Shown here piece after piece: positions 6,072 to 58,065 of a DNA stretch of 64,000 bases. Source of the DNA: an uncultured Clostridia bacterium. Its GTDB lineage: Bacteria; Bacillota; Clostridia; TANB77; CAG-508. The notes beneath the pieces are model-generated. The model was not told the origin of the DNA and did not search any database. It was given only the letters and a program-made list of their open reading frames with translations. The stretch covers positions 48,148 through 112,147 of the forward strand of contig CAKPKP010000004.1 of NCBI GenBank assembly GCA_934167495.1, in the 5' to 3' direction. Each line of letters opens with the position of its first letter. Positions within the stretch are counted from its first letter, which is position 1. Made by a program: the position numbers and the translations under genes.

Positions 6072-7064
6072 ATGAAAAATTATAAATTAGCTATTGTTGG
6101 TGCTACTGGGCTTGTAGGAAGAACAGCTTTAAAAGTATTAGACGAATTTAATCTACCTATTTCAGAATATGTATTTTTTGCATCTAAAAATTCAGCTGGA
6201 ACTACTTTATATTTTAAAAACAAAGAATATACTGTTTATGAACTAAAAGACGATTCTTTTGACCAAGGATTTGACTTTGCGATATTTTCAGCAGGAGCTG
6301 ATACTGCTAAACACTTTGCTCCTATTGCTGCTTCTAAAGGTTGTATAGTAGTAGATAATAGTAGTGCTTTTAGAATGGATAATAATGTTCCACTTGTTGT
6401 TCCTGAAGTAAATCCAAAAGAAATATTTAAAAACAATGGTATAATAGCCAACCCTAATTGTTCTACAATTCAAGCTGTTGTTGCTTTAAAACCATTAGAT
6501 GATAAATATGGAATAAAAAGAGTGGTTTATTCAACTTACCAAGCTGTATCAGGAGCTGGTCAAAAAGGAATTAAAGATTTTGAAAATGGTATTAAAGGAG
6601 AAGCTCCACAAAAATTCCCTTACCCTATTTTCAACAATTGTATTCCTCAAATTGATGTATTTTTAGATAACGGATATACAAAAGAAGAAATGAAGATGAT
6701 TAATGAAACTAGAAAAATCTTATCTAAACCAGATTTAAAAGTAACAGCTACAACTGTAAGAGTTCCTGTTATTAACTCACACAGTGAATCAATAAATGTA
6801 GAATTTGAGAAAAACTTTAATTTACAAGATTTAATTAATACATTAAAAAGATCTGATGGAATTATTGTTAAAGATGATATAAAATCTGAAATCTACCCTC
6901 TTGCTCTTGATGCTACTGGAAATAATGAAGTTTTCATTGGTAGAATTCGTAGAGATGATAGTGTTCCTTACGGAATTAATATGTGGGTTGTTGCAGATAA
7001 TATCAGAAAAGGAGCAGCTACAAATGCTGTTCAAATAGTAAAAAAATTAATAGAAGGAAAATAA
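6072..7064 (+). CDS. asd: Aspartate-semialdehyde dehydrogenase
   Basis: N-terminal GATGLVGR NAD fold, active-site NPNCSTIQ, 330 aa. Confidence 0.92.
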   Translation: MKNYKLAIVGATGLVGRTALKVLDEFNLPISEYVFFASKNSAGTTLYFKNKEYTVYELKDDSFDQGFDFAIFSAGADTAKHFAPIAASKGCIVVDNSSAFRMDNNVPLVVPEVNPKEIFKNNGIIANPNCSTIQAVVALKPLDDKYGIKRVVYSTYQAVSGAGQKGIKDFENGIKGEAPQKFPYPIFNNCIPQIDVFLDNGYTKEEMKMINETRKILSKPDLKVTATTVRVPVINSHSESINVEFEKNFNLQDLINTLKRSDGIIVKDDIKSEIYPLALDATGNNEVFIGRIRRDDSVPYGINMWVVADNIRKGAATNAVQIVKKLIEGK

Positions 7065-45643: not shown

Positions 45644-45728
45644 TATATCTCTATAAATTGTATTTTTTTTTCATATGTGTTATATTATAACAAGAATTTA
45701 TAATTTTTACAATATTTATGGAGGTTTT

Positions 45729-46964
45729 ATGAATAAAGTTTTAGGTATAGTATCTGAATACAATCCATTTCATAATGGACATTTATTACATTTAGCACAA
45801 TCAAAAAAACTAACAAAATCAAACTATTCCGTATGCATTATGACTGGAAACTTCTCTCAACGTGGTGATACATCACTTGTAGATAAGTGGACAAAAGCGG
45901 AAATGGCAATAAAGAACGGTATAGACTTAGTAATCGAATTACCTACAATTTATTCTATTTCTAGTGCAGAAAATTTTGCAGATGGCGCTATTAAAATCTT
46001 AGAAAATTTAGGAATAATAAATTATCTTTCTTTTGGAAGTGAAATTGGAGATATAAATATACTAGACGAAATATCTGAAGTTCTTTATCAAGAACCAAAA
46101 GAATTTACAGATTTATTATCAATGGAATTAGATAGAGGAATATCATTTCCAAAAGCACGTGAAAATGCATTAAAACTTTTTCTAAACAACACTCGTAGAT
46201 ATTCTAATGTTTTATCAAATCCCAATAATATTTTAGGAATAGAATACCTTAAAGCCTTGAAAAAATACAACAGTAATATTATTCCAATCACCATAAAAAG
46301 AGACACTGTTGAATATAATAGTTTAAAACCATCTTCTGACGGAATTGCAAGTGCTACAGCTATCAGAAATCTTATACAAAGAAAAAGAAAATTTCATAGA
46401 ACTGTGCCTTTTGAAACTTATGAAATTCTTGAAGATAGAATTAAATATGGAAAAATAGTACCTGGACTTTATAAATTTGAAAAAGAAATTATATATTTAT
46501 TAAGAAAAATGTCTTTAGAAGAAATTGCAAAAATCCCTGATGTTTCCGAAGGACTTGAAAATAAAATTCAACTTGCAGCATACAATTGCAATAATTTAGA
46601 TGATTTAATTTTAAGCATAAAATCTAAAAGATATACAGAAACTAGAATCCGCAGAATACTGCTTTATGTTTTACTAGAAATAACTAAAAAAAATATGGAC
46701 ATATCAAAAAAAGTTATTCCTTACATAAGAGTTCTAGGATTTAATAGTGCAGGAAAACAATTATTATCTAATATAGCAGAAGCTAATCCTAGACTAAATA
46801 TTATTGTTTCTGTAAAAAGATTTATGGAAACAAATCCAGATAAAAATTTACTTTCTATGCTAGAAAAAGATATATTCGCAACAAATGTGTATACTCTTGG
46901 ATTTGAATATGAATCCAAAGCAAACTTAGACTACACAAAAAAAGTCATTGAAATAAAATCATAA
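45729..46964 (+). CDS. tmcAL: Nucleotidyltransferase of the YlbM/TmcAL (tRNA-Met cytidine acetate ligase) family
   Basis: MNKVLGIVSEYNPFHNGHLLHL N-terminus. GGAGG lies 5 nt upstream of ATG 45729; the track ORF starts further upstream at 45675. Confidence 0.75.
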   Translation: MNKVLGIVSEYNPFHNGHLLHLAQSKKLTKSNYSVCIMTGNFSQRGDTSLVDKWTKAEMAIKNGIDLVIELPTIYSISSAENFADGAIKILENLGIINYLSFGSEIGDINILDEISEVLYQEPKEFTDLLSMELDRGISFPKARENALKLFLNNTRRYSNVLSNPNNILGIEYLKALKKYNSNIIPITIKRDTVEYNSLKPSSDGIASATAIRNLIQRKRKFHRTVPFETYEILEDRIKYGKIVPGLYKFEKEIIYLLRKMSLEEIAKIPDVSEGLENKIQLAAYNCNNLDDLILSIKSKRYTETRIRRILLYVLLEITKKNMDISKKVIPYIRVLGFNSAGKQLLSNIAEANPRLNIIVSVKRFMETNPDKNLLSMLEKDIFATNVYTLGFEYESKANLDYTKKVIEIKS

Positions 46965-46969
46965 CTAAA

Positions 46970-47292
46970 GGTATATATTAATATTTTGCAGTTCGAGGAA
47001 GTTATACCTGCGTATGCTCATTCTTACAGCGCCATGTGAGACAAAAAATATTAATATATACCTTATTTTTAATCTAATATCCATGGTATATATTAATATT
47101 TTGCAGTTCGAAGAAGTTATACCTGCATATGTTCCTTCTTACAACGCCATGTGAGACAAAAAATATTAATATATACCTTATTTTCAATTTAATATCTATG
47201 GTATATATTAATATTTTGCAGTTTGAGGAAGTTGTACCAGCGTATGTTCATTCTTACAGCGCCATGTGAGACAAAAAATATTAATATATATC
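46970..47292 (+). repeat. Tandem array of three 115-bp units, each a 93-nt hairpin unit (18-bp arms plus 57-nt core) followed by a 22-nt spacer
   Basis: Units start at 46970, 47085 and 47200. The arms GGTATATATTAATATTTT / AAAATATTAATATATACC are identical in all copies, except that the last arm ends ...ATATATC. Confidence 0.9.
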
Positions 47293-47301
47293 TTTAGAAG
47301 T

Positions 47302-48219
47302 TTATTTTTTAATATTTTTTGCTATCTCACTAACCATATTAATATTTATTATAGGTATAGCCCCCTCATAAATAAGCCTATTAGTTCCCGTAGAATTAAC
47401 ACTATTAATATTTCCAGGCACAGCAAACACATCCTTACCTTGACTCAAAGCATACTCAACAGTTATAAAACTTCCACTATGCTCTTTAGCCTCAATCACA
47501 ATAATTCCTTCAGAAAGCCCACTTATAATCCTATTCCTCTCTGGAAAATTCTTAGCATCAGGAACTGAGCCAACTGGATATTCAGATATAATAAGCCCAT
47601 CTCTAGCAATTATATTTTCATATATCTTTTTATTTTCATATGGATAAACATAATCAACACCTGAGCCCAAAACAGCTATTGTACTATTACATTCTTCTAA
47701 AGCACCTAAATGAGCATATTTATCAATACCTCTCGCCATTCCACTAACAACTACAACTTTATTTTTTGATAATATATTAGCAACAACTTTAGCCGTATTT
47801 TTACCATAATCACTGCACAATCTACATCCTATTACAGCTATAGACTTTTGCTTTAATAACTCTACATTTCCAATTGCATACAATACAATTGGTGGAAAAT
47901 CTATCGCCTTCAAATTATCTGGATATTCTTCATCATCAATTGTAATTACTTTTATATTTTTACTCTTCATATATTCCATAACTTTATTTAAATTTGTTTT
48001 GTAACAATCATTTCTTAATTCATTAATACATTCATATTTAAAATTCTTTATTACATCTTTATGCAAATTCCAAATATTTTTTGGATTTCCATACATTTTT
48101 AATAATTCATGTTTAATTCTATTTTCTATTTTTAGCATAGAAAACCATATCCAATACTTTTTTTCTATAATAATTCCTCCTATAAATTTACTCTTTATAT
48201 TTTTATCATTAGTCATCAA
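47302..48219 (-). CDS. dprA: DNA-processing protein DprA
   Basis: Rossmann-like core VVSGMARGIDKYAHLGAL...IAVLGSGVD...FPERNRIISGLS. Confidence 0.9.
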   Translation of the reverse strand: MMTNDKNIKSKFIGGIIIEKKYWIWFSMLKIENRIKHELLKMYGNPKNIWNLHKDVIKNFKYECINELRNDCYKTNLNKVMEYMKSKNIKVITIDDEEYPDNLKAIDFPPIVLYAIGNVELLKQKSIAVIGCRLCSDYGKNTAKVVANILSKNKVVVVSGMARGIDKYAHLGALEECNSTIAVLGSGVDYVYPYENKKIYENIIARDGLIISEYPVGSVPDAKNFPERNRIISGLSEGIIVIEAKEHSGSFITVEYALSQGKDVFAVPGNINSVNSTGTNRLIYEGAIPIININMVSEIAKNIKK

Positions 48220-49191: not shown

Positions 49192-50301
49192 TTATTTTTT
49201 ATTTATTACTACAAGTGCTAATATAGTAGATACAAGCACTACGAAATATATGTATGTTGCAATATTATTTCCTACTTCTGGTAACACTCCTACTGATTTT
49301 GCTATTTTTTGATATTCCTTCTCTTCATTTGTTTTATTATCTTCTTCTGTTGTAGGAGCTGGTGTTTCTGATGGTTCTGGTGTATTTTCTGGTTTTTCAG
49401 TTGTTAAAAAACTAGAAGATACATATGCTGTTTCACCATTAAATTTTACTCTACTCCAGCCATTGCTTCCTACACCTGTTCTTGTTAACTCCGCATTTTC
49501 TTCTAATAATGCCAAAGATTCACTACTTGTAGTGTAACTAGCTCTAACATTTACTTTGGATTTTACATATACAGTTTCATCCACATCTGTAAACGTTGGT
49601 TCTTCCTCTTCTATTTTTTCTTTTGTTAAATAAGATGATGATATATATGCTGTTTTTCCATCGTAATTTACTCTGCTCCAACCATTACTTCCTACACCTG
49701 TTCTTGTTAACTCAGTTCCTATATCTAATAATCCATATGATTTACTACTTGTTGTATAACTTGCTCTAACATTCACTCTAGATTTTACATATACTGTTTC
49801 ATTTACATCTGTAAATGTTGGCTCTTCTTGAGTTGGTTCTGGTGTAGGATTATTTGGTTCTGGATCTGGCTCAGGTTCTGGTTCAGGAGTTGAATTACTT
49901 TGTATTTGAACACTCTTAGATAAAACAGAGTTTGAATTCATCTTATTACCTTTTTCGTCTGAAATAGTTAAATTTGTAACTTTAATTGTTGCTGTTCCAA
50001 TTGTCTTGGCTGAAAAGCTTAAAGTTGCATCATCTACTTGATGAAATTCTTCTTCTAAACTAGTTGTACTTACTTTTGTTATTTTTGTAGTGTCTGTAGT
50101 TCCATCACTATATGTTATAGTAACACTTCCTGAATATGCTACTGCACCAGTTGGCATTGCTATTCTTATATTTATATTTTCTCCAACAATTACACTATCA
50201 CTTGCAACTATAGATGCTTCTGCTGCATAACTTTTTTGTATTGGTAATATTATAAATGCTATTATTAATATTATAAAAATCTTTAGATTTATTTTTTTCA
50301 T
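49192..50301 (-). CDS. Cell-wall-anchored surface protein: signal peptide, Ig-like domain, Pro/Glu linker, two SH3b-like repeats, LPEVG sorting signal
   Basis: C-terminal LPEVG plus a hydrophobic helix plus an INKK tail. An approximately 74-aa unit (EEPTFTDV.ETVYVKS.VNVRASYTTSS...GWSRV...TAY.SSS.L) is present twice. Confidence 0.8.
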   Translation of the reverse strand: MKKINLKIFIILIIAFIILPIQKSYAAEASIVASDSVIVGENINIRIAMPTGAVAYSGSVTITYSDGTTDTTKITKVSTTSLEEEFHQVDDATLSFSAKTIGTATIKVTNLTISDEKGNKMNSNSVLSKSVQIQSNSTPEPEPEPDPEPNNPTPEPTQEEPTFTDVNETVYVKSRVNVRASYTTSSKSYGLLDIGTELTRTGVGSNGWSRVNYDGKTAYISSSYLTKEKIEEEEPTFTDVDETVYVKSKVNVRASYTTSSESLALLEENAELTRTGVGSNGWSRVKFNGETAYVSSSFLTTEKPENTPEPSETPAPTTEEDNKTNEEKEYQKIAKSVGVLPEVGNNIATYIYFVVLVSTILALVVINKK

Positions 50302-57814: not shown

Positions 57815-57928
57815 CTGTTCCTTTCCTAATATTCTTAATATATATCATTTATTTTATTTTTTTTCAATATGTATTTTTAAGTCCGCATTTTTATTCTCAT
57901 GCAAAAATTTTATCACCTCATCAGTTTT

Positions 57929-58001
57929 GTGTCAAAAATCTCCGTCCCCATTGACACGTCAATTGATAGCTCATGTCAATGGGGACGGAGATTTTTGACA
58001 C
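57929..58001. repeat. Perfect inverted repeat: 28-bp arms, 17-nt spacer
   Basis: GTGTCAAAAATCTCCGTCCCCATTGACA (57929-56) is the exact reverse complement of 57974-58001. Confidence 0.9.
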
Positions 58002-58014
58002 AAAATAAGAAAAA

Positions 58015-58041
58015 TTCCTGCATGCAATTGCAATGCAGGAA
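58015..58041 (-). terminator. Terminator of the 58066..58848 gene
   Basis: Stem TTCCTGCAT / ATGCAGGAA, followed on the minus strand by TTTTTCTTATTTT. Confidence 0.65.
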
Positions 58042-58065
58042 AAAAGAAATTACATAAAACATTTC

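What the first reader, a model, noticed from the sequence alone, without database searches (positions are those of the whole stretch)
46970..47292. 3 x 115-bp tandem array of long hairpin units between tmcAL and dprA: invariant 18-bp arms, variable 57-nt cores
Each unit has the form GGTATATATTAATATTTT, a 57-nt core, then (A)n AAAATATTAATATATACC, followed by a 22-nt spacer. Across the three copies the arms carry no substitutions, apart from the distal end of the last arm. The core has 8 variable positions and the spacers have 3. This implies constraint or homogenisation acting on the stems.

The core substitutions do not look compensatory for the obvious internal helices (for example CTCA/TGAG is lost in copy 2). 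In one reading frame half of them are synonymous: ATG GTA TAT ATT AAT ATT TTG CAG TTC GAR GAA GTT RTA CCN GCN TAT GYT CMT TCT TAC ARC GCC ATG TGA = MVYINILQFEEV(I/V)PAY(A/V)(H/P)SY(S/N)AM. However, there is no Shine-Dalgarno sequence and copy 1 lacks the ATG.

The array lies between two convergent genes, 10 nt from the dprA stop. Possible explanations are a tandemly amplified MITE-like element with 18-bp TIRs, a structured sRNA or decoy array, a protein-binding array, or a multi-hairpin terminator. I do not recognise it as a known RNA family.
Basis: seen in the sequence. Interest (0 to 1): 0.65.

Follow-up and report, generated by a model that had tools for sequence, protein, structure and literature searches.

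The report
Variable tandem hairpin repeats between genes
Three tandem copies of a non-coding 93-bp hairpin fill the gap between two convergent genes; the hairpin stem belongs to a large uncatalogued family of palindromic repeats in gut Clostridia, the copy number differs between strains, and the array most likely serves only as the genes' shared terminator.

Summary
In detail: window 46970-47292 holds 2.8 x 115 bp, each unit an 18-bp AT arm, a 57-nt core, the inverted arm and a 22-nt linker.

- **Non-coding.** The proposed 23-aa frame lacks ATG in 10 of 31 natural unit variants and has a stop at codon 8 in 7.
- **Not a conserved RNA fold.** There is no Rfam match. The inner helices break without compensation in a sister lineage, and core SNPs occur in all four combinations.
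- **Copy number varies.** Strains of the species carry 2-5 units in metagenome assemblies; a sister lineage has 2. A more distant relative has an ordinary terminator hairpin there instead.
- **The stem is a family signature.** The arms and their junction bases match a dispersed family of nested palindromic repeats in related gut Clostridia MAGs (at least 118 loci, about 25 genomes). Some members are 155-bp MITEs with 8-bp target duplications, and some form tandem arrays. The 57-nt core was found only at this locus.
- **A gene landed in it.** In many strains a horizontally acquired AAA_14/DUF4143 ATPase (PADLOC candidate PDC-S01) sits inside the array, joined by illegitimate recombination.

Best reading: a tandemly amplified MITE/REPIN-like hairpin that took over the convergent terminator position. 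Moderate interest; a new variant of a known kind.

The parts
46970..47062 (.). Hairpin unit 1: left arm 46970-46987, 57-nt core 46988-47044, right arm 47045-47062
   Evidence: The family covariance model scores it 51 bits on the + strand.
47063..47084 (.). Linker 1 (TTATTTTTAATCTAATATCCAT). On the + strand it supplies a U-rich tract directly after hairpin 1.
47085..47177 (.). Hairpin unit 2: arms 47085-47102 and 47160-47177
   Evidence: Family model 46.5 bits.
47178..47199 (.). Linker 2 (TTATTTTCAATTTAATATCTAT)
47200..47292 (.). Hairpin unit 3: arms 47200-47217 and 47275-47292. One arm substitution at 47291 gives a G.T pair on the + strand.
   Evidence: Family model 44.7 bits.
46965..46987 (.). 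Outermost left arm of the whole array (CTAAAGGTATATATTAATATTTT). It is complementary to 47275-47297 (23 nt, one G.T), which suggests the array grew inside one original longer hairpin.
   Evidence: Read. The minimum-free-energy fold of the whole array uses this outer stem.
47275..47297 (.). Outermost right arm of the whole array (AAAATATTAATATATATCTTTAG)
45726..46964 (+). tmcAL-type HIGH nucleotidyltransferase gene. It converges on the array; its stop codon lies 5 nt before unit 1.
   Evidence: Pfam PF05636, E 5e-132. NCBIfam NF010191.
47302..48216 (-). dprA gene. It converges on the array; its stop codon lies 9 nt after unit 3.
   Evidence: Pfam PF02481. TIGR00732. The identical protein is found on 14 metagenome contigs.

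Best explanation
The feature is a strain-variable tandem array of a non-coding 93-bp long-hairpin repeat plus a 22-bp linker.

**Identity (shown).** The AT-rich arms (TATATATTAATATTTT) and the bases next to them (arm-GCAG... and ...GAC-AAAAAA-arm) mark a large, uncatalogued family of nested palindromic intergenic repeats in low-GC gut Clostridia. That family behaves like MITEs or REPINs. The 57-nt loop of the window's unit was seen only at this locus.

**Origin (inferred).** One such hairpin came to occupy the terminator position between the convergent tmcAL and dprA genes. It was then amplified by unequal recombination or replication slippage. The units now exchange SNPs by gene conversion while copies are gained and lost.

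**Why the arms stay constant (inferred).** The arms are the family's conserved module, either for hairpin or cruciform formation or for recognition by an unidentified factor. Each arm also has twice as many conversion templates as the core.

**Function (inferred).** The array is the only stem-loop between the two stop codons. On the + strand every hairpin is followed by UUAUUUU, and in dprA sense the last hairpin is followed by UUUAGUUAUGAUUUU. It therefore most likely serves as the shared terminator or 3'-end structure of both genes.

**Side effect (insertion shown, cause inferred).** As a recombination-prone site it captured a horizontally transferred defence-candidate ATPase gene in many strains.
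For: **Structure.**

**Copy-number haplotypes**:
- 3 units without the ATPase gene: the window, L001, L004 and L126-128.
- 1-3 units + a diverged unit + the ATPase gene + 1-3 units: L002, L003, L005 and L137-146.
- A sister lineage with dprA 90% identical has 2 units with identical arms.
- A relative with dprA 63% identical has no unit. It has a plain terminator hairpin (GGCAGAAAGTA/TACTTTCTGCC) in the gap.

**Recombination among units.** The biallelic core sites occur in all four combinations.

**Family.** The pattern TATATTAATATTTT-N40-70-AAAATATTAATATA hits 118 stretches in about 25 gut Clostridia MAGs. All are intergenic and lie next to housekeeping genes.
- In two genomes the hairpin sits inside a 155-bp MITE with the terminal repeat GTTACAATTCACAGC and 8-bp target duplications: 12 of 21 copies match at 6 or more of 8 positions, and 5 are perfect.
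- Another genome has tandem arrays of hairpin plus a ~23-nt linker, starting directly after a stop codon.
- A covariance model built from the family scores the three window units as the top hits in the 64 kb, at 45-51 bits.

**Non-coding.**

**No RNA-specific signal.** No Rfam match. In the family's stems, G.T and A.C mismatches number 31 and 29.

**No other terminator** lies in the gap.
Against: - The 57-nt core was never found away from this locus. It is absent from the rest of the 64 kb, from 185,579 species-representative genomes searched by the arm pattern, from JGI metagenomes and from IMG/VR.
- No direct target duplication flanks the array.
- No transposase or RAYT was found. Strict MITE or REPIN membership is therefore unproven.
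- An HMM of the family core does not detect the window's core, so homology rests on the arms and junction bases alone.
- The terminator scan did not call these hairpins, because their loops exceed its limit. An 18-bp all-AT stem closing a 57-nt loop is not a classical intrinsic terminator.
- The invariant 12 nt beside one arm (CATGTGAGACAA on the + strand) is unexplained.
- Copy numbers come from short-read metagenome assemblies, which can collapse tandem repeats.
- No transcript data could be consulted.
Confidence: 0.55

Rival explanations
1. The array has no function. It is a neutral or selfish tandem duplication of a palindromic repeat that happens to lie between two genes, and transcription ends by other means such as Rho or read-through.
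For: - Copy number and core sequence drift freely.
- The array is restricted to one species and its sister lineage.
- Family members lie in any intergenic context, including 23 between divergent genes.
Against: - No alternative terminator exists in the 337-bp gap.
- The array persists in every strain examined and in the sister lineage.
- The arms and a 12-nt block are invariant while the rest of the core varies at 39% of positions.
Confidence: 0.2
2. The array is a DNA-level protein-binding array. Each arm contains the 10-bp palindrome ATATTAATAT, so the array offers six identical duplex sites. An unidentified dimeric DNA-binding protein (a regulator, a nucleoid protein, or the factor that mobilises the family) occupies them.
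For: - The same arm is kept across genomes whose dprA is only about 45% identical, and with at least four unrelated cores.
- Centre-to-centre site spacings of 73 and 42 bp are close to whole helical turns (from coordinates).
- Stem mismatches in the family show no strand bias, which fits DNA-level rather than RNA-level constraint.
Against: - No candidate protein recurs next to the elements.
- Site spacing differs in the dispersed family (about 60 bp).
- A 10-bp palindrome in an all-A/T stretch is not rare by chance.
- A variant arm (TTGATATATAGCTATTT) carries the same core.
Confidence: 0.12
3. Each unit is a structured small RNA (a regulator, decoy or processed 3'-UTR RNA) that acts from the + strand.
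For: - The + strand folds better than the - strand: -99 against -82.7 kcal/mol for the whole array.
- Two G.U pairs exist only on the + strand.
- The family model scores the + strand higher.
- A 12-nt block next to the 3' arm is invariant.
Against: - No Rfam match.
- The inner helix UCUUACA/UGUGAGA loses 2 of 7 pairs without compensation in the sister lineage.
- Core SNPs show no covariation.
- Promoter-like sites are weak, not conserved, and fewer than in shuffled sequence.
- Family stems show no G.U against A.C asymmetry.
Confidence: 0.08
4. The units are recombination sites of a cassette system, similar to integron attC sites, and the ATPase gene present in some strains is a cassette.
For: A promoter-bearing gene of 85-93% identity across many gut Firmicutes, and so horizontally mobile, sits between units in many strains. 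Palindromic sites with conserved ends and variable centres resemble attC.
Against: - Homology to the donor-type sequence starts inside a unit's core at a microhomology (AACTTC) and ends about 14 nt before the stop codon, within linker-like sequence. It does not start or end at a fixed point in the arms.
- The same gene in other organisms has no such hairpins around it.
- All carriers share one junction, so this was a single event.
- The immediate neighbours on both sides of the array are housekeeping genes (folD, RNase H and others), not a recombinase.
Confidence: 0.04
5. Each unit encodes the 23-aa peptide MVYINILQFEEV(I/V)PAY... proposed by the first reader.
For: An open frame exists in units 2 and 3 of the window.
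Against: - There is no Shine-Dalgarno sequence.
- ATG is absent in 10 of 31 natural unit contexts, including both units of the sister lineage.
- CAG to TAG creates a stop at codon 8 in 7 of 31 contexts.
- Changes between lineages are mostly non-synonymous: Y to H, H to L and Y to N.
Confidence: 0.01

Closest known systems
REPINs and REP/BIME clusters of Proteobacteria (REP doublets forming hairpins, mobilised by RAYT transposases)
   Same: - Intergenic.
- About 100-nt hairpins made of two conserved inverted arms around a less conserved spacer.
- Found as single copies and as tandem clusters, often at 3' ends of genes, where REPs are known to act as terminators or mRNA stabilisers (my own knowledge).
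- Arms conserved while the loop drifts.
   Different: - REP arms are GC-rich imperfect palindromes with a 5' GTAG; these arms are pure A/T apart from a terminal GG/CC.
- No RAYT (IS200-like Y1 transposase) was seen near any of more than 118 family loci.
- The host is a low-GC Clostridia lineage.
- Units here are direct tandem copies of whole hairpins with a constant 22-nt linker.
Bacterial MITEs such as Correia elements (Neisseria) and RUP (Streptococcus pneumoniae)
   Same: - 100-155 bp, non-coding, with terminal inverted repeats, dispersed in intergenic DNA.
- Fold as long hairpins when transcribed.
- Correia elements are reported to terminate transcription and to be RNase III substrates (my own knowledge).
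- Relatives of the window's hairpin sit in a 155-bp element with 15-bp terminal repeats and 8-bp target duplications.
   Different: - The window's unit has no target duplication and no second locus.
- It is tandemly amplified.
- In the family the conserved part is the internal hairpin, while the outermost repeats differ between genomes. This is the reverse of a typical MITE.
BOX elements of Streptococcus pneumoniae (boxA-boxB(n)-boxC)
   Same: Found in Firmicutes. Intergenic, modular, with a variable number of tandem copies of an internal module, predicted to form stable secondary structure, with copy number differing between strains (my own knowledge).
   Different: In BOX elements the repeated module is a 45-bp internal box flanked by distinct A and C boxes. 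Here the whole hairpin plus linker is the repeated unit, and there is no sequence similarity.
Integron attC sites and cassette arrays
   Same: Imperfect palindromes with conserved ends and variable centres that separate genes. One promoter-bearing gene lies between units in some strains.
   Different: There is no integrase. The gene's junctions lie inside a core and a linker at microhomology, not at a fixed arm position. Only one gene and one insertion event were seen.
Rho-independent bidirectional terminators between convergent genes
   Same: Position between two stop codons. Stem-loop followed by U-rich tracts in both transcription directions. A relative has a classical terminator hairpin in the same gap.
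   Different: The stem is 18 bp of A/T closing a 57-nt loop. The structure is triplicated. The stem sequence is shared with a dispersed repeat family.

Membership tests
MITE | Terminal inverted repeats bounding a short non-coding element | tested here: met
   Each unit has perfect 18-bp arms, and the whole array has 23-nt outer arms. All frames are broken in natural variants.
MITE | Direct target-site duplication flanking the element | tested here: not met
   The array's flanks (CTAAA / TTTAG) are inverted complements, not direct repeats. By contrast, the 155-bp composite relatives in two MAGs do show 8-bp duplications: 12 of 21 match at 6 or more of 8 positions.
MITE | Many dispersed copies in the same genome | tested here: inconclusive
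   No other copy occurs in the 64-kb window, by arm with up to 3 mismatches, by core, or by family covariance model. The core type was found nowhere else. The arm family is dispersed in related genomes, for example 32 loci in one MAG. The rest of this organism's genome could not be read.
MITE | A cognate autonomous element (transposase gene with the same terminal repeats) | tested here: inconclusive
   No recurrent neighbouring protein was found among 352 ORFs within 1.5 kb of family members. Genes lying between paired elements are housekeeping genes. Whole genomes were not searchable.
REP / REPIN | Hairpin made of two conserved inverted arms with a less conserved spacer, occurring singly and in tandem clusters | tested here: met
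REP / REPIN | REP consensus: GC-rich imperfect palindrome with a 5' GTAG, recognised by a RAYT | tested here: not met
   The arms are A/T-only apart from GG/CC and have no GTAG at the 5' end. No Y1-transposase-like neighbour was seen.
Intrinsic (Rho-independent) terminator | Stable stem-loop immediately followed by a U-tract at the 3' end of a gene | tested here: inconclusive
   - The hairpins lie 5 and 9 nt from the two stop codons.
- On the + strand, UUAUUUUU or UUAUUUUC follows units 1 and 2.
- On the - strand, UUUAGUUAUGAUUUU follows the last unit.
- The consensus scan did not call them, because it allows loops of 3-8 nt only.
- Activity could not be tested.
Any Rfam RNA family | Covariance-model match | tested here: not met
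   No match with E up to 10 overlaps the array. No match overlaps family members in seven loci.
Conserved structured RNA (new family) | Compensatory base-pair changes in helices beyond the arms, with strand-specific G.U tolerance | tested here: not met
   The inner helix is broken in the sister lineage without compensation. Core SNPs occur in all four combinations. In the family's stems, G.T and A.C number 31 and 29. Family stems do covary, but inverted repeats maintained at DNA level would show the same pattern.
Integron attC / gene cassette array | Cassette boundaries at a fixed recombination point in the site, with an adjacent integrase | tested here: not met
   The junctions of the ATPase insertion lie in a core and a linker. 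The genes on either side of the array are housekeeping genes, not an integrase.
Small-protein gene | Open frame and start codon conserved, with mostly synonymous change | tested here: not met
   Start codon lost in 10 of 31 contexts and a nonsense codon in 7 of 31.

The most novel reading that the evidence does not exclude
The AT arm (and its variant TTGATATATAGCTATTT) and the conserved loop GACC..CCCYAGMTATG are interchangeable modules of a new class of palindrome-building or palindrome-seeking mobile DNA.

Under this reading, hairpin modules insert into, or are extended from, the centres of existing palindromes such as terminators and other MITEs. That would produce the nested palindromes, the copy-specific but always complementary outer stems, and the tandem arrays. 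An unidentified hairpin- or cruciform-specific enzyme would recognise the arm. The window's array would then be one product of that mechanism at a former terminator.
Probability: 0.15. Interest if true: 0.7.

Novelty: new variant of a known kind. Interest (0 to 1): 0.4.

Why it matters
**What is new.** Intergenic palindromic repeats (REP/REPIN, Correia, BOX) are well studied in Proteobacteria and streptococci. They are essentially undescribed in the uncultured low-GC Clostridia of the human and animal gut. This locus gives an entry point to a large family there, with three unusual properties:
- The internal hairpin, not the termini, is what is conserved between genomes.
- Arms and loops combine in different pairings.
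- Tandem arrays arise repeatedly.

**Practical uses.**
- The array is a strain-resolving copy-number marker for a gut species found in Hadza and other non-industrial cohorts.
- It marks a small hotspot where a candidate anti-phage gene (PDC-S01) is present or absent.
- It is a caution for annotators: a tidy 23-codon frame inside a repeat is not a gene.

**What would raise its importance.** If the arm proves to be recognised by a dedicated enzyme, that would define a new mobilisation mechanism. If it does not, this is an ordinary selfish repeat co-opted as a terminator.

Tried and rejected
- **Rfam.** Searches of the region and of seven family loci found no relevant match.
- **Exact-protein look-ups with the longest ORFs.** These failed until the real start codon of dprA was used.
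- **Core-specific pattern scans.** JGI metagenomes and IMG/VR gave zero hits.
- **BLASTN against phages and plasmids.** No match.
- **Homology of the window's core to the dispersed family's core.** nhmmer with a core HMM found nothing, and blastn-short gave only chance 11-12-mers. Homology is therefore claimed only for the arms and junction bases.
- **Peptide hypotheses on either strand.** Rejected.
- **Replication terminus or dif site.** Rejected. GC skew is uniformly negative across the window, and tmcAL is a lone + strand gene among - strand genes.
- **Promoter inside the units.** Only 9 of 12 consensus matches, not conserved between linker variants, and fewer sites than in shuffled sequence.
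- **A protein partner.** No recurrent neighbouring protein family, and genes between paired elements are WhiA, RecA, glycosyltransferase and similar.
- **Positional conservation.** Family hairpins are not next to dprA or tmcAL in other genomes; the elements lie 3-7 kb away.
- **Empty outer MITEs lacking the inner hairpin.** None found, but the sampled loci were chosen for having the hairpin, so this is uninformative.
- **Orientation of family cores relative to transcription.** A weak bias of 37:20 (p = 0.03). Copies are not independent, so this is not relied on.
- **Literature.** Searches for the arm sequence and for MITE/Clostridia/tandem/hairpin found nothing relevant.

Full report
**1.

Window 46970-47292 is a head-to-tail array of 2.8 copies of a 115-bp unit (TRF score 566, 92% matches). 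Each unit consists of:
- GGTATATATTAATATTTT;
- a 57-nt core;
- the exact inverted arm;
- a 22-nt linker.

The arm occurs six times in the window, only in the array. The single mismatch is at 47291. Single units fold at -23.5 to -29.9 kcal/mol on the + strand, with z-scores of -3.6 to -5.5.

The array fills the gap between two convergent genes. The tmcAL-type nucleotidyltransferase stops 5 nt upstream. dprA stops 9 nt downstream. The window has 26% G+C and uniformly negative GC skew, and nothing suggests a replication terminus here.

**2. It is not a gene and not a recognisable RNA family**

Rfam gives nothing over the array, even at E = 10.

I collected 31 distinct natural unit contexts from other strains. 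It carries CAG to TAG at codon 8 in 7 of them. The 39-codon frame on the other strand is broken just as often.

In a sister lineage (dprA 90% identical) the + strand ATG is absent from both units. Three of the five codon changes are non-synonymous. The "obvious" inner helix UCUUACA/UGUGAGA loses two pairs with no compensating change.

Within the species, the biallelic core sites (A/T, T/C, C/T, G/A, G/A) occur in all four pairwise combinations. That pattern indicates recombination between units, not covariation.

Promoter-like matches are weak, not conserved between linker variants, and fewer than in shuffled sequence.

**3. Population and phylogenetic behaviour of the locus**

The exact DprA protein and a 99% variant are found on more than 20 metagenome contigs, mostly from Hadza and other cohorts. 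The array differs between them:

| Arrangement | Loci |
|---|---|
| 3 units, no inserted gene | window, L001, L004, L126-128 |
| 1, 2 or 3 units + one diverged unit + a 403-aa gene + 1, 2 or 3 units | L002, L003, L005, L137-146 |
| 2 units, arms identical, core differing at about 8 positions (sister lineage) | L133 |
| No unit; classical hairpin GGCAGAAAGTA-ATAT-ATACTTTCTGCC in the gap (dprA 63% identical) | L134-136 |

The array is therefore young. It is restricted to one species group, varies in copy number, and sits where a relative keeps its terminator. One caveat applies: these are short-read assemblies. Unit-specific SNPs argue that the differences are real, but long reads are needed to confirm them.

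Across 28 distinct units, 4 of 36 arm positions vary, all at the arm ends. In the core, 17 of 57 positions vary. The 12 core nucleotides adjoining one arm are invariant as well.

**4. The inserted gene**

The gene inside the array in many strains encodes an AAA_14/DUF4143 ATPase. It matches the PADLOC candidate defence family PDC-S01 (E = 4e-154).

It has its own TTGATA-17-TATAAT promoter, preceded by a perfect palindrome.

Proteins 85-93% identical occur on hundreds of contigs from other gut Firmicutes, for example Intestinibacter bartlettii. DprA, by contrast, falls to 66% and then about 53% identity outside the species group. The gene was therefore acquired horizontally.

Nucleotide homology (88%) to a copy in another organism runs from about 100 bp upstream of the ATG to about 14 nt before the stop codon. 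The left junction lies inside a unit's core, at the microhomology AACTTC. The right junction lies in linker-like sequence. That foreign context contains no such hairpins.

This was a single illegitimate insertion into the array, not cassette-type site-specific recombination.

**5. The arms belong to a large family**

Scanning one genome per species (GTDB) for TATATTAATATTTT-N40-70-AAAATATTAATATA returned 118 stretches. Almost all come from about 25 uncultured gut Clostridia MAGs of human, goat and chicken origin. Proteins shared with the window are 45-85% identical.

*Architecture.* These are hairpins about 90 nt long, built from:
- a copy-specific but always complementary outer stem;
- the invariant AT arm;
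- a short covarying inner stem;
- a 28-nt loop with the conserved motif GACC...CCCYAGMTATG.

*Context.* They are intergenic in every context: 58 between co-directional genes, 23 between divergent genes and 8 between convergent genes. They lie next to unrelated housekeeping genes, with no recurrent protein neighbour.

*MITE behaviour.* In two related genomes the hairpin sits in a 155-bp element with the terminal repeat GTTACAATTCACAGC and 8-bp target duplications. Of 21 copies, 12 match at 6 or more of 8 positions and 5 are perfect. That is bona fide MITE behaviour.

*Tandem arrays.* In another genome, tandem arrays of hairpin plus a ~23-nt linker (97-bp period) begin directly after a stop codon. 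This is the same architecture as in the window.

*Link to the window.* A covariance model of the family scores the three window units as the best hits in the 64 kb: 51, 46.5 and 44.7 bits on the + strand, and 30-38 bits on the - strand. It finds no other member there. The match comes from the arms and the adjoining bases (arm-GCAG......GAC-AAAAAA-arm). An HMM of the family loop does not detect the window's 57-nt core. That core was found nowhere else.

*Modules.* The same arm also carries a third, unrelated core type in other genomes and metagenomes. The family loop also occurs with a variant arm, TTGATATATAGCTATTT. Among the 150 best model matches, about 110 have the AT arm, about 31 the variant arm and about 9 other arms. 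Arms and loops therefore behave as exchangeable modules.

*No strand bias.* Stem mismatches in the family show no strand bias once one fixed column pair is set aside: 31 G.T against 29 A.C. This argues for DNA-level maintenance of the inverted repeat rather than selection on an RNA from one strand.

**6. Mechanism**

*Shown:*
- A non-coding, recombining, copy-number-variable tandem array.
- A stem that is the signature of a dispersed MITE/REPIN-like family.
- Placement exactly between two convergent stop codons, with no other stem-loop available.

*Inferred:*
- A family hairpin replaced or invaded the ancestral bidirectional terminator.
- Unequal crossing-over or slippage then amplified hairpin plus linker. 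The outermost arms of the array still pair over 23 nt, as if the duplications arose inside one longer hairpin.
- Gene conversion shuffles the core SNPs.
- The array now ends both transcripts. On the + strand each hairpin is followed by UUAUUUU(U/C). In dprA sense the last hairpin is followed by UUUAGUUAUGAUUUU.
- The recombination-prone array also became the landing site of a mobile defence-candidate gene.

*Weak points:*
- An all-AT 18-bp stem closing a 57-nt loop is not a textbook terminator.
- No transcript data could be consulted.
- The invariant 12-nt block is unexplained.
- No mobilising enzyme is known.

**7. Comparison with known systems and verdict**

In behaviour the array is closest to REPIN/BIME clusters, Correia-type MITEs and pneumococcal BOX elements. 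It fails strict membership of each:
- no target duplication, and only one locus, for this core type;
- no RAYT and no REP consensus;
- no boxA or boxC.

It is not an attC array, not a peptide gene and not an Rfam RNA.

I rate it a new variant of a known kind, with moderate interest. The more novel possibility, a palindrome-centre-seeking or palindrome-building hairpin module with a dedicated enzyme, is not excluded. It is what the nested, modular architecture of the family hints at. I give it about 15%.

Noticed in passing
L002:4268-5650 (and L003, L005, L137-L146); absent from the window: Many strains carry a 403-aa AAA_14/DUF4143 ATPase inside the array. It matches PADLOC candidate defence family PDC-S01 (E = 4e-154). 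Proteins 85-93% identical occur in many unrelated gut Firmicutes, so it is a horizontally mobile single-gene candidate defence system that is present or absent at this locus. Its promoter is preceded by the perfect palindrome CACTTTTGGAAA-AATA-TTTCCAAAAGTG, which is partly conserved in a foreign copy (L147).
   Followed up: partly
L011-L121 (MAGs CALXUC and CAKPRQ), e.g. L024:~60-215: A 155-bp MITE with the 15-bp terminal repeat GTTACAATTCACAGC and 8-bp target-site duplications. It carries the family hairpin at its centre, with about 20 or more copies per genome. In some copies the orientation of the central loop relative to the asymmetric outer part is flipped.
   Followed up: partly
L057:5724-5815, L086:578-669, L012:3214-3305 and about 30 others: The conserved family loop (GACCCGGATTGTTA..CCCTAGCTATG) also occurs with a different arm, TTGATATATAGCTATTT, which differs from the AT arm by three compensated substitutions. 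Conversely, the AT arm carries at least four unrelated loops. Arms and loops look like exchangeable modules. The role of the GC-rich loop motif, conserved across species, is unknown.
   Followed up: partly
L032:652-742, L155, L156, L162, L163: A third hairpin family has the same AT arm but a 63-nt core (...GCTTGAGTAGCGCTAGCACACGGATAACCCGTGAAGCCTCAAAAG...) and outer arms of 39 bp or more. It is present in several genomes and metagenome contigs.
   Followed up: no
L018:6000-6317 and L044:2069-2236 (MAG CALYBE): Independent tandem arrays of family hairpins (97-bp and 95-bp periods). In L018 the array starts mid-unit directly after a gene's stop codon and lies within ~60 bp of the contig end.
   Followed up: partly
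window 57925-58005 (and 58016-58045): A perfect 32-bp inverted repeat with a 17-nt loop (TTTTGTGTCAAAAATCTCCGTCCCCATTGACA / its complement) lies in an intergenic gap between two - strand genes. A second, shorter hairpin follows it. It is unrelated in sequence to the array and may be another palindromic repeat or a terminator.
   Followed up: no
window 49393-49827: A 222-bp tandem duplication (2 copies, 81% matches) lies inside the gene for an SH3_3-domain protein (49192-50301, - strand). It is presumably a coding repeat.
   Followed up: no
L012:~880-1130 against L031:~6235-6296: At an orthologous site in two related MAGs, one genome has a short palindrome (TTGATATATAGTT...AGCTATATATCAA). The other has a palindrome with similar arms and a family-hairpin element at its centre. 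This could be a filled and an empty site, which would suggest insertion at palindrome centres.
   Followed up: partly
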